The notes beneath the pieces are model-generated. The model was given only the letters and a program-made list of their open reading frames with translations, was not told the DNA's origin and ran no database searches. 64,000 bases of DNA from Escherichia coli (GTDB lineage Bacteria; Pseudomonadota; Gammaproteobacteria; Enterobacterales; Enterobacteriaceae), in the NCBI RefSeq assembly GCF_003334405.1, contig NZ_QOWM01000006.1, one strand, 5' to 3'. Within the stretch, counting starts at the first letter, position 1, and every line of letters starts with the position of its first letter. The translations under genes and the position numbers were made by a program. This document shows, one piece after another, positions 24,317 to 25,129 of the stretch.

Positions 24317-25129
24317 CTACACCAGTTCCAGCATCGTTACTTCCGGGCGGCAGTTCAGACGCAAACCATACAAACTGCCCACGCCACGGGTTGTGTAGAT
24401 GTGTCTTTCGCCAAAGGCATTTAATCCGGCGACGTAACGTTTATCTTCGACAGGGGCAAAAGGTTCACCAACCAACGGTACGCGCAGTTGCCCGCCGTGA
24501 GTATGGCCGCACAGCATCAGATCCCAGGGTTCATCACGCATGACTTCTTTGCTGTCGGGATTATGCGCCAGCACCAGTCTTGGCAGATTGGCTTCGCTGG
24601 CGGGAGGCGGTTTGCATTGTCCGGCCCATAAGTCACCAGTGCCTACCAGTTCGAATTGCCTGTTCGGCGTGGCGATCACCGTAGCCTGGTTAAACAACAC
24701 CGTGATGCCCGCTGATTTCAACGTCTCGCCAATTAAGTGATTTTTTTCTGTACCAACAGGGCGATCGTGGTTGCCGAAGCAGGCAAACGTCGGCGCACAT
24801 TCGGCAAGGGGGGAGAGTACGTCACTAAACGCCGAAAAATTCAGCGACATATCAAATAATACGTAATCGCCGCCCAGTAATATCAAATCGGGCTTTTGTT
24901 CTATGCCAAGAGCAATCGCGTCAGAAATCAGGCTTAAAGGAACAAAACGAGAGTAATGGAGATCGGCCAGAAAAAGAATTTTGAATGGTGCTGCGTTGTC
25001 TTTAAAAAAGGCGAGGCGGTGACGGATTAATTCAAACCAGCCTGGCTCACAGTAATGCATATAACCGAAACCTGAGCTCGTGGCTATCGTCGCGGCAGTA
25101 GCCTGCAAAAATCGGCGGCGTGAAATCAT
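24317..25129 (-). CDS. yaeI: Metallophosphoesterase YaeI (predicted phosphodiesterase) with twin-arginine-type signal peptide
   Basis: 270-aa ORF; N-terminal SRRRFLQATAATIATSSGFG resembles a Tat signal; calcineurin-like motifs (LADLHYS, GDYV, GNHD, GHTHGG). Confidence 0.9.
   Translation of the reverse strand: MISRRRFLQATAATIATSSGFGYMHYCEPGWFELIRHRLAFFKDNAAPFKILFLADLHYSRFVPLSLISDAIALGIEQKPDLILLGGDYVLFDMSLNFSAFSDVLSPLAECAPTFACFGNHDRPVGTEKNHLIGETLKSAGITVLFNQATVIATPNRQFELVGTGDLWAGQCKPPPASEANLPRLVLAHNPDSKEVMRDEPWDLMLCGHTHGGQLRVPLVGEPFAPVEDKRYVAGLNAFGERHIYTTRGVGSLYGLRLNCRPEVTMLELV

What the first reader, a model, noticed from the sequence alone, without database searches (positions are those of the whole stretch)
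24317..25129. YaeI: metallophosphoesterase with a twin-arginine-like signal peptide
The N-terminus SRRRFLQATAATIATSSGFG has the S/T-R-R-x-F-L pattern of Tat substrates. That would place a folded, metal-containing phosphodiesterase in the periplasm, where its physiological substrate is unknown.
Basis: seen in the sequence. Interest (0 to 1): 0.3.

Follow-up and report, generated by a model that had tools for sequence, protein, structure and literature searches.

The report
YaeI phosphodiesterase with Tat export signal

Summary
Window 24317-25129 is a 270-codon ORF on the minus strand. It is 100% identical to E. coli K-12 yaeI (b0164) and lies between dapD and yaeH. The N-terminus MISRRRFLQATAATIATSSGFG is there as described.

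The twin-arginine motif is not a chance match. R4 and R5 are invariant in 66 homologues down to 44% identity, alongside the metal-binding residues. 84 of 92 family representatives carry RR. The 8 without it have a clearly more hydrophobic, Sec-type N-terminal helix. NCBI's annotation pipeline already labels the N-terminal fragment of an IS1-split copy a [quoted passage not shown].

Three nuances came out:
- The K-12 signal is atypical. Its hydrophobic core is more polar than that of 17 accepted E. coli Tat signals, and it has no A-x-A cleavage site. Cleaved versus membrane-anchored is undecided.
- YaeI is related to LpxG but does not qualify as one.
- yaeI is absent from about 62% of complete E. 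coli genomes, where an 842-bp cassette is replaced by 129 bp of unrelated sequence.

Export itself was not tested here, and the key paper was not readable. Interest is low.

The parts
24317..25129 (-). yaeI coding sequence (270 codons plus stop), phosphodiesterase YaeI, b0164
   Evidence: ORF listing. 100% identical to K-12 MG1655 184257-185069. NF008460 equivalog scores 531 bits against a cut-off of 188.
25106..25123 (-). Codons 3-8, S-R-R-R-F-L: the twin-arginine consensus motif
   Evidence: Read directly from the sequence. R4 and R5 are invariant; F7 occurs in 57/66 and L8 in 56/66 homologues. Pfam TAT_signal covers residues 1-17. TIGR01409 covers residues 2-17.
25064..25111 (-). Codons 7-22, FLQATAATIATSSGFG: a weakly hydrophobic, Thr/Ser/Ala/Gly-rich h/c-region. 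The candidate signal-peptidase site is G20-F21-G22 | Y23.
   Evidence: Best 12-residue Kyte-Doolittle mean is 0.99, against 1.39-2.02 for 17 accepted E. coli Tat signals and 1.66 +/- 0.29 for family members. Family residue counts: -1 is small in 53/66 and -3 is permitted in 63/66. This is a weak test, because the whole region is rich in Ala and Gly.
25037..25063 (-). Codons 23-31, Y-M-H-Y-C-E-P-G-W: a conserved Y-x-(R/H)-x-x-E-P-x-W linker between the signal/anchor helix and the catalytic domain
   Evidence: Conservation: Y23 62/66, basic residue at position 25 in 60/66, E28 65/66, P29 59/66, W31 61/66. In the AlphaFold model it is part of one continuous helix, residues 4-30.
24494..24985 (-). 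Codons 49-212: calcineurin-like metallophosphoesterase domain. Motifs are D56-x-H58, G87-D88, G119-N120-H121-D122, H189 and G208-H209-x-H211.
   Evidence: Pfam PF00149 E 7e-13. Invariant columns in the alignment. Model pLDDT 94.4. Foldseek matches to Mre11, GpdQ, Rv0805, UshA and CpdB.
25136..25140 (-). Shine-Dalgarno-like AGGGA, 6 nt upstream of the ATG
   Evidence: Read from the sequence...GCAGGGATGAGCG ATG.
25143..25171 (-). dapD intrinsic terminator (8-bp GC-rich stem plus T7 tract), ending 13 nt before the yaeI start codon. It leaves no room for a separate promoter in the 53-bp spacer.
   Evidence: Terminator scan. No sigma-70-like promoter was found in 24100-25500.
24306..25147 (-). 842-bp strain-variable cassette holding yaeI, with 18 bp upstream and 11 bp downstream. 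Genomes lacking yaeI carry 129 bp of unrelated sequence here instead.
   Evidence: The CDS is found in 2084 of 5426 complete E. coli genomes, while the flanks are found in 5425. Junctions were mapped against O157:H7 86-24, locus L001:2361-2489.

Best explanation
yaeI encodes a binuclear metallophosphodiesterase made with an N-terminal twin-arginine signal.

Inferred pathway:
1. The protein folds and probably loads its two metal ions in the cytoplasm.
2. The S-R-R-R-F-L motif with its weakly hydrophobic helix is recognised by TatBC.
3. The folded domain is moved across the inner membrane by the Tat translocase.
4. The catalytic domain ends up on the periplasmic side. It is either released after cleavage near G22|Y23 or stays tethered by the uncleaved helix.
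5. There it hydrolyses a phosphodiester or pyrophosphate substrate that is not yet identified.

Shown here: gene identity, an intact catalytic site, the motif, and its strict conservation and co-variation with hydrophobicity across the family.

Inferred: actual Tat dependence, cytoplasmic metal loading, final topology and substrate.
For: - The motif is present and the start codon is the first possible one in the ORF.
- R4 and R5 are invariant in 66 homologues at 44-92% identity, together with metal ligands D56, H58, D88, N120, H121, H189 and H211.
- Among 50%-identity representatives, 84 of 92 have RR before the conserved Y-x-R-x-x-E-P-x-W. The 8 without RR have a much more hydrophobic N-terminal helix: best-12 Kyte-Doolittle 2.42 against 1.68, Mann-Whitney p = 9e-5. 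This is the classic Tat/Sec dichotomy and implies an extracytoplasmic domain in both classes.
- TIGR01409 gives 20.1 bits on the isolated N-terminus (cut-off 16.7). That is higher than WcaM (14.8) and than FhuD, AmiA and AmiC, where the model reported no match.
- PGAP labels the N-terminal piece of an IS1-split yaeI a Tat-signal protein.
- dN/dS between E. coli alleles is 0.12-0.24 overall and 0.11-0.23 in two of three comparisons for codons 1-27, so the signal region is under purifying selection.
- PMC5449189 describes a family of metallophosphoesterases related to B. subtilis YkuE. [quoted passage not shown]
- An AFDB neighbour annotated YkuE has TM-score 0.89 to the model.
- From my own memory, not checked here: the YaeI signal peptide was in the set of E. 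coli Tat signal peptides tested with reporter fusions by Tullman-Ercek et al. 2007 (J Biol Chem 282:8309), and YaeI appears in review lists of E. coli Tat substrates.
Against: - No experiment on YaeI export could be read. PMC2730154 and PMC3436186 are not held.
- The K-12 h-region is more polar (0.99) than every one of 17 accepted E. coli Tat signals (1.39-2.02). It is also the least hydrophobic among its own relatives.
- All 17 comparators end in a small-x-A (A-x-A-type) site; YaeI has only G-F-G.
- On the full-length protein TIGR01409 scores 16.5, which is 0.2 bits below its cut-off.
- The gene has no recognisable promoter of its own and sits directly behind the dapD terminator, so expression may be low.
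- E. coli's other periplasmic metallophosphoesterases, UshA and CpdB, are to my knowledge Sec substrates, so this fold does not in itself require Tat.
Confidence: 0.75

Rival explanations
1. Tat-dependent signal anchor. The RR helix is inserted by Tat but never cleaved. YaeI would then be an inner-membrane-tethered enzyme with its active site at the periplasmic membrane surface, acting on a lipid-linked phosphate or pyrophosphate.
For: - There is no A-x-A site.
- AlphaFold models one uninterrupted helix over residues 4-30, running straight into the conserved Y-x-R-x-x-E-P-x-W segment.
- Family members without RR have a long hydrophobic helix in the same place with no obvious cleavage site, for example ...VVLLSVVAIVYATRIEPNW.
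- Polytopic relatives keep an RR-preceded final membrane helix (PMC5449189).
- The nearest named family, LpxG, is to my knowledge a lipid-precursor pyrophosphatase (121.8 bits).
Against: - Only about 16 uncharged, weakly hydrophobic residues (Kyte-Doolittle 0.99) lie between RRR and Y23. That is short and polar for a stable membrane span.
- Residues at -3 and -1 before Y23 are compatible with signal peptidase I in most homologues.
- The B. subtilis homologue YkuE is reported to be cleaved.
Confidence: 0.3
2. In K-12 the signal is marginal and the gene is on its way out. The protein is poorly expressed and/or poorly exported, so in this strain it is largely cytoplasmic, degraded or irrelevant.
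For: - The K-12-type allele has the most polar h-region among the relatives compared; none of 93 others is at or below 0.99.
- It lies below all 17 accepted E. coli Tat signals.
- yaeI is missing from about 62% of complete E. coli genomes.
- IS1-split and truncated copies exist.
- There is no promoter of its own, and the dapD terminator sits directly upstream.
Against: - The reading frame and every catalytic residue are intact.
- dN/dS of 0.12-0.24 between alleles shows continuing purifying selection, including on codons 1-27.
- RR is retained in every allele seen.
- yaeI is cited as a sigma-E regulon member in PMC5105897.
- Transposon insertions in yaeI were enriched in a phage T7 selection (PMC7414163), which hints at a phenotype.
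Confidence: 0.15
3. Cytoplasm-facing enzyme. The N-terminal helix is merely a membrane-association element and the arginines are ordinary positive charges. The catalytic domain stays in the cytoplasm, as would be needed for an LpxG/LpxH-like role in lipid A precursor synthesis.
For: - LpxG is the closest other named NCBIfam family.
- A database annotation links YaeI to lipid A biosynthesis, as quoted in PMC7414163.
Against: - The LpxG score of 121.8 is far below the 350-bit cut-off and covers only residues 133-269.
- Both arginines are invariant, with no Lys substitution in 66 sequences, and they sit within a full S/T-R-R-x-F-L context.
- Charges on the N-terminal side of the helix predict an N-in, C-out orientation.
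- Relatives lacking RR swap in a Sec-type hydrophobic helix.
- To my knowledge, E. coli already has LpxH for that step.
Confidence: 0.07
4. Annotation artefact. Translation really starts at Met24, so the RR motif is never made.
For: An in-frame ATG exists at codon 24.
Against: - Residues 1-23 are conserved at the protein level across genera and phyla, with invariant RR.
- dN/dS for codons 1-27 is 0.11-0.23 in two of three allele comparisons.
- An AGGGA Shine-Dalgarno-like element sits 6 nt before the ATG at 25129.
Confidence: 0.02

Closest known systems
E. coli K-12 YaeI (b0164, NCBIfam NF008460 'phosphodiesterase YaeI')
   Same: It is this gene: 100% nucleotide identity and the same neighbours, dapD and yaeH. 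It scores 531 bits against a 188-bit cut-off.
   Different: Nothing differs. The window carries the reference allele.
Bacillus subtilis YkuE, a Tat-dependent cell-wall metallophosphoesterase (Monteferrante et al. 2012, as summarised in PMC5449189 and PMC6708511)
   Same: Both have a calcineurin-like phosphoesterase domain preceded by an N-terminal twin-arginine signal. [quoted passage not shown] An AFDB protein annotated YkuE matches the YaeI model at TM 0.89 and 32% identity.
   Different: YkuE export through TatAyCy and its signal cleavage are reported experimentally, whereas I could read no such experiment for YaeI. YkuE ends up on a Gram-positive wall and YaeI would end up in a Gram-negative periplasm. 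I did not align YaeI directly to the B. subtilis sequence.
LpxG, UDP-2,3-diacylglucosamine diphosphatase of Chlamydia (NCBIfam NF033458)
   Same: It is the second-best NCBIfam family (E 3.7e-35) and shares the C-terminal half of the catalytic domain. Both have a single N-terminal helix ahead of the phosphoesterase domain; for LpxG this is from my own knowledge.
   Different: The score is 121.8 bits against a 350-bit cut-off, so YaeI is not an LpxG equivalog. LpxG's substrate is cytoplasmic, whereas the YaeI signal predicts the opposite side of the membrane.
Accepted E. coli Tat signal peptides (SufI, CueO, AmiA/C, FhuD, HybA and others; Table 2 of PMC7549933)
   Same: The S/T-R-R-x-F/L-L core is shared; compare SufI SRRQFIQ and NapG GRRRFLR. 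The distance from RR to the end of the signal is similar: 17 residues in YaeI against 19-29. The TIGR01409 score falls within their range.
   Different: The YaeI h-region is much more polar (0.99 against 1.39-2.02). It lacks the terminal small-x-A site that all 17 comparators have. Its n-region is only three residues long.
Periplasmic metallophosphoesterases UshA and CpdB of E. coli; GpdQ; Rv0805; Mre11
   Same: They share the binuclear calcineurin-like fold (Foldseek prob 1.0, TM 0.44-0.53).
   Different: Sequence identity is only 12-16%. No solved structure is a close relative: phmmer against PDB found none, and the profile search found only Mre11/SbcD at E of 2.5e-4 or weaker. To my knowledge UshA and CpdB use Sec signals and carry an additional C-terminal domain.

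Membership tests
Twin-arginine (Tat) signal peptide | S/T-R-R-x-F-L-K consensus near the N-terminus | tested here: met
   S3-R4-R5-R6-F7-L8, with Q9 in place of K. It is the only ORF of 153 in the window that passes [ST]RR.F[LI].
Twin-arginine (Tat) signal peptide | Uncharged, moderately hydrophobic h-region after the RR motif, less hydrophobic than Sec signals | tested here: inconclusive
   There are 21 uncharged residues after RRR. However, the best-12 Kyte-Doolittle value of 0.99 lies below all 17 accepted E. coli Tat signals (1.39-2.02) and all 93 relatives compared.
Twin-arginine (Tat) signal peptide | c-region with an A-x-A type signal-peptidase I site | tested here: inconclusive
   There is no A-x-A. 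G20-F21-G22|Y23 satisfies the -3/-1 rule, and the family shows small residues at those positions (53/66 and 63/66). The surrounding region is rich in Ala and Gly anyway, so the test has little power.
Twin-arginine (Tat) signal peptide | Match to curated profile models (TIGR01409, PF10518) | tested here: inconclusive
   TIGR01409 scores 16.5 bits on the full protein against a 16.7 cut-off and 20.1 bits on the isolated 42-aa N-terminus. Pfam TAT_signal scores 17.5 bits, E 0.004. PGAP applies the Tat-signal name to the N-terminal fragment in NZ_CP059288.
Twin-arginine (Tat) signal peptide | Conservation of the RR pair in orthologues | tested here: met
   R4 and R5 are invariant in 66/66 sequences. 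84 of 92 50%-identity representatives have RR, and those lacking it are Sec-like.
Twin-arginine (Tat) signal peptide | Export abolished in tat mutants or by RR to KK substitution | not testable with these tools
   This needs an experiment. The paper I recall as having tested the signal peptide (PMC2730154) is not held.
Calcineurin-like metallophosphoesterase superfamily (PF00149) | Profile match plus the five metal-binding motifs (DxH, GD, GNH[D/E], H, GHxH) | tested here: met
   PF00149 E 7e-13. D56, H58, G87, D88, G119, N120, H121, D122, H189 and H211 are invariant, and H209 is conserved in at least 90%.
Calcineurin-like metallophosphoesterase superfamily (PF00149) | Beta-sandwich phosphoesterase fold | tested here: met
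   The AlphaFold model has pLDDT 94.4 and pTM 0.90. Foldseek prob is 1.0 to Mre11, GpdQ, Rv0805 and UshA.
YaeI equivalog (NCBIfam NF008460) | Full-length score above the curated cut-off of 188 bits | tested here: met
   531.3 bits over residues 1-270.
LpxG (NCBIfam NF033458) | Full-length score above the curated cut-off of 350 bits | tested here: not met
   121.8 bits; the best stretch covers only residues 133-269.
YkuE-type Tat-exported metallophosphoesterases | Homology to B. subtilis YkuE | tested here: inconclusive
   The homology is stated in PMC5449189 without naming YaeI. An AFDB neighbour annotated 'YkuE' from Kuenenia matches at TM 0.89. No direct alignment with the B. subtilis protein was made.
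Bacterial lipoprotein | Lipobox [LVI][ASTVI][GAS]C at the end of the signal | tested here: not met
   The residues before C27 are M-H-Y. C27 is not conserved; the column is V, I, W, L or G in relatives.

The most novel reading that the evidence does not exclude
YaeI may not be a soluble periplasmic enzyme. It could instead be a Tat-inserted, uncleaved, N-terminally tethered phosphodiesterase or pyrophosphatase, working at the periplasmic face of the inner membrane on a lipid-linked substrate, as an LpxG-like chemistry on the opposite side of the membrane. Its unusually polar K-12 signal and its loss from most E. coli lineages would then reflect a dispensable, niche-specific envelope-remodelling function.
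Probability: 0.2. Interest if true: 0.45.

Novelty: already known. Interest (0 to 1): 0.13.

Why it matters
YaeI is one of the few E. coli K-12 proteins with a Tat-type signal for which no physiological role turned up in the papers I could search, so a substrate assignment would close a small gap in the Tat substrate list. The signal itself is already recognised by standard annotation, so the finding adds no new biology.

Two observations sharpen how an experiment should be designed. First, the K-12 hydrophobic core is atypically polar and has no A-x-A site. Second, the gene is missing from most E. coli strains. An experiment should therefore test cleavage against anchoring, and should compare alleles and strains.

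Tried and rejected
Literature:
- Full-text searches for YaeI with twin-arginine or Tat terms found nothing relevant.
- Tullman-Ercek 2007 (PMC2730154), Monteferrante 2012 (PMC3436186) and my guessed id for Dilks 2003 are not held.
- Tat-substrate tables for ExPEC and Salmonella do not list YaeI. This fits yaeI being absent from many strains.
- The Akkermansia enzyme Amuc_1901 (PMC12808494) has similar ligand spacing and reported phospholipid hydrolysis. I could not verify that it is a YaeI homologue, because it is not among the fetched proteins. I use it only as a weak lead.

Sequence and structure:
- A sigma-E promoter scan upstream of yaeI gave only weak 9/12 matches, which lie before the dapD terminator. 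This is not convincing.
- Rfam on 22000-27000 gave only sub-threshold hits.
- No repeats flank the yaeI cassette, so there is no sign of a mobile-element mechanism.
- GC content is ordinary.
- PDB has no close relative by sequence: phmmer found none, and the profile search found only weak Mre11/SbcD matches.
- Gene neighbourhoods of distant homologues share nothing informative.
- The short + strand ORFs overlapping yaeI (66 aa at most) have no support.

Readings rejected:
- Lipoprotein, because there is no lipobox.
- A start at Met24, because of conservation and dN/dS.
- LpxG membership, because the score is below the cut-off.

Full report
**Observation.** The coordinates 24317-25129 exactly bound a 270-codon ORF on the minus strand, plus its stop; the finding did not state the strand. 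The ATG at 25129 is the first possible start after the upstream in-frame stop. An AGGGA Shine-Dalgarno-like element lies 6 nt before it. The overlapping + strand ORFs are at most 66 aa and have no support. Rfam and repeat scans of the neighbourhood found nothing.

**Identity.** The DNA is 100% identical to E. coli K-12 MG1655 yaeI (b0164, 184257-185069). It lies between dapD and yaeH, with cdaR beyond. NCBIfam's YaeI equivalog model scores 531 bits against a cut-off of 188. Pfam finds Metallophos at residues 49-212 (E 7e-13) and TAT_signal at residues 1-17 (17.5 bits, E 0.004).

**Is the twin-arginine motif real or chance?** Several independent lines say it is real.
- Of 153 six-frame ORFs of at least 80 aa in the window, only two pass a loose Tat-like rule (RR, then hydrophobic residues, then at least 13 uncharged residues). 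These are FhuD, which is listed as a Tat substrate, and YaeI. Only YaeI passes [ST]RR.F[LI].
- In an alignment of 66 homologues at 44-92% identity, R4 and R5 are invariant, as are the metal ligands. F7 is kept in 57/66, L8 in 56/66, and position 3 is S or T in 56/66.
- In an exhaustive search of 50%-identity cluster representatives (222 hits at E of 1e-30 or better; the best 150 were listed and analysed), 84 of 92 proteins with a well-anchored N-terminal region have RR in front of a conserved Y-x-R-x-x-E-P-x-W segment. The 8 without RR carry a markedly more hydrophobic helix instead: best-12 Kyte-Doolittle 2.42 against 1.68, Mann-Whitney p = 9e-5. This is the textbook Tat-versus-Sec trade-off. 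It implies that the catalytic domain is extracytoplasmic in both classes.
- Between three divergent E. coli alleles, dN/dS is 0.12-0.24 overall. For codons 1-27 it is 0.11-0.23 in two of the three comparisons. The signal region is therefore translated and under constraint, which, with the conservation above, rules out a start at Met24.
- TIGR01409 scores 16.5 bits on the full protein, 0.2 below its cut-off, but 20.1 bits on the isolated N-terminus. For comparison, SufI, CueO, MdoD, HybA and NrfC score 23-26 bits, WcaM scores 14.8, and the model reported no match for FhuD, AmiA and AmiC.
- NCBI's pipeline already names the N-terminal fragment of an IS1-split yaeI a 'twin-arginine translocation signal domain-containing protein'.

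**What is atypical.** The K-12 hydrophobic core (FLQATAATIATSSGFG) is rich in Thr, Ser, Ala and Gly.
- Its best 12-residue hydrophobicity is 0.99. The 17 E. coli Tat signals tabulated in PMC7549933 range from 1.39 to 2.02, with mean 1.69 and sd 0.16.
- None of 93 relatives is as low. Other E. coli alleles reach 1.4-2.1.
- All 17 comparators end in a small-x-A (A-x-A-type) site, and YaeI has none.
- The only plausible signal-peptidase site is G20-F21-G22|Y23. Across the family, position -1 is small in 53/66 and -3 is permitted in 63/66. The whole stretch is rich in Ala and Gly, so this is weak evidence.
- AlphaFold (pLDDT 94.4) draws residues 4-30 as one helix that runs into the conserved linker and then the catalytic fold.

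Whether the signal is cleaved, giving a soluble periplasmic enzyme, or retained, giving a tethered periplasm-facing enzyme, is therefore open. A lipoprotein reading is excluded, because there is no lipobox and C27 is not conserved.

**The enzyme.** All five metallophosphoesterase motifs are intact: D56-x-H58, G87-D88, G119-N120-H121-D122, H189 and G208-H209-x-H211.
- PDB holds no close relative by sequence.
- Foldseek finds only generic members of the fold (Mre11, GpdQ, Rv0805, UshA, CpdB) at TM 0.44-0.53.
- In AFDB50 the neighbours are proteins named YaeI, plus one named YkuE at TM 0.89.
- LpxG is the next-best curated family, but at 121.8 bits against a 350-bit cut-off and over the C-terminal half only. 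YaeI is a relative of LpxG, not an LpxG.
- The only activity I know of is hydrolysis of the artificial substrate bis-pNPP. This is from my own memory of a general enzymatic-screen paper. It is echoed in the source name 'phosphodiesterase with model substrate bis-pNPP' attached to homologue P0035.
- No physiological substrate turned up in the papers I could search.

**Context and expression.** The dapD intrinsic terminator (25171-25151 plus a T7 tract) ends 13 nt before the yaeI ATG. No sigma-70-like promoter is found. PMC5105897 cites yaeI among sigma-E regulon genes, with references 43 and 47 of that paper; reference 43 is Rezuchova 2003. My scan found only weak sigma-E-like matches. A sigma-E link would fit an envelope role, but I could not verify it. 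A phage T7 transposon screen found yaeI insertions enriched together with LPS-core genes (PMC7414163). The authors' lipid A link rests on annotation only.

**Population genetics (outside the finding).**
- The yaeI CDS is found in only 2084 of 5426 complete E. coli genomes, while its flanks are found in 5425.
- In O157:H7 86-24, window 24306-25147 (842 bp, yaeI plus 18 and 11 bp) is replaced by 129 bp of unrelated sequence.
- A pan-genome paper notes enrichment in phylogroup A (PMC5422975).
- Superficieibacter electus carries a 65%-identical homologue at the same glnD-dapD-X-DUF3461 position. The gene is therefore old at this locus and has been lost in many E. coli lineages.
- Alleles within E. 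coli differ by dS of 0.15-0.5. The BL21 allele looks mosaic: dS is 0.95 in codons 1-27 against 0.09 in the rest.
- Outside Enterobacteriaceae, several of the closest named homologues come from Verrucomicrobiota at 44-56% identity.

**Literature.** The searchable library holds no paper that discusses YaeI export. PMC5449189 describes the YkuE family of Tat-dependent metallophosphoesterases. [quoted passage not shown] PMC6708511 lists YkuE as TatAyCy cargo. From memory, the YaeI signal peptide was one of the roughly 29 E. coli Tat signal peptides tested with reporter fusions by Tullman-Ercek et al. 2007, and YaeI appears in standard lists of E. coli Tat substrates. I could not open that paper, so I cannot quote its result for YaeI.

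**Mechanism and rivals.** My best explanation, at confidence about 0.75, is as follows. The protein folds and probably acquires its two metals in the cytoplasm. TatBC recognises S-R-R-R-F-L together with the weakly hydrophobic helix. The folded domain is then translocated to the periplasmic side, where it hydrolyses an unidentified phosphodiester or pyrophosphate.

The motif, its conservation and the intact active site are shown here. Tat dependence, metal loading, topology and substrate are inferred.

The rivals are:
- an uncleaved Tat-dependent signal anchor (about 0.3, as a variant of the main model);
- a marginal, decaying function in K-12 (about 0.15);
- a cytoplasm-facing LpxG-like enzyme (about 0.07);
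- a downstream start codon (about 0.02).

**Verdict.** The residual open questions are cleavage versus anchoring, the competence of the polar K-12 signal, the substrate, and why most E. coli strains have lost the gene. These are modest. Interest is 0.13.

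Noticed in passing
window 24306-25147: yaeI is a strain-variable single-gene cassette. 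The CDS is present in 2084 of 5426 complete E. coli genomes, while the dapD and yaeH flanks are in 5425. In O157:H7 86-24 the 842 bp are replaced by 129 bp of unrelated sequence (L001:2361-2489). No flanking repeats were found. A 65% homologue sits at the same locus in Superficieibacter electus, so the absence in E. coli looks like loss.
   Followed up: partly
window 24317-25129 versus L008 (BL21) and L009 (strain D10): E. coli yaeI alleles are unusually divergent, with dS 0.15-0.50 and nucleotide identity down to 87%, yet remain under purifying selection (dN/dS 0.12-0.24). The BL21 allele looks mosaic: dS is 0.95 in codons 1-27 against 0.09 in the rest.
   Followed up: partly
L007 (NZ_CP059288.1 3695910-3698099): In strain 1506 an IS1X2 element splits yaeI after about 57 codons. 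PGAP names the N-terminal piece 'twin-arginine translocation signal domain-containing protein'. Several truncated YaeI proteins also appear in the protein database (P0013, P0014, P0021, P0026).
   Followed up: yes
window 10632-11525 (+): fhuD is the only other ORF in the window with a Tat-like N-terminus (MSGLPLISRRRLLTAMALSPLLWQMNTAHA). The longest ORF starts one Met codon upstream of that sequence. The TIGR01409 model reported no match for it, which shows how insensitive that model is.
   Followed up: partly
window 25143-25171 (-) and 25181-25207 (-): The dapD terminator ends 13 nt before the yaeI start, and no sigma-70 promoter is predicted. yaeI is cited as a sigma-E regulon gene in PMC5105897, but only a weak sigma-E-like match (CGAACTG-15-TAAAA) is present, and it lies upstream of the terminator. 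In yaeI-less genomes homology ends inside the terminator's T-tract (at 25148), so their dapD terminator has a shorter T-run.
   Followed up: partly
protein level, homologues P0027, P0035, P0044, P0062: Outside Enterobacteriaceae, several of the closest named YaeI homologues (44-56% identity) come from Verrucomicrobiota metagenome-assembled genomes. No large Salmonella cluster was seen. The distribution within Enterobacteriaceae therefore looks patchy.
   Followed up: no
literature, PMC7414163 and PMC12808494: Transposon insertions in yaeI were enriched after phage T7 selection alongside LPS-core genes. An Akkermansia metallophosphoesterase (Amuc_1901) has similar metal-ligand spacing and is reported to hydrolyse phospholipids in vitro. 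Both are only hints towards an envelope-lipid substrate. Homology of Amuc_1901 to YaeI was not verified.
   Followed up: no
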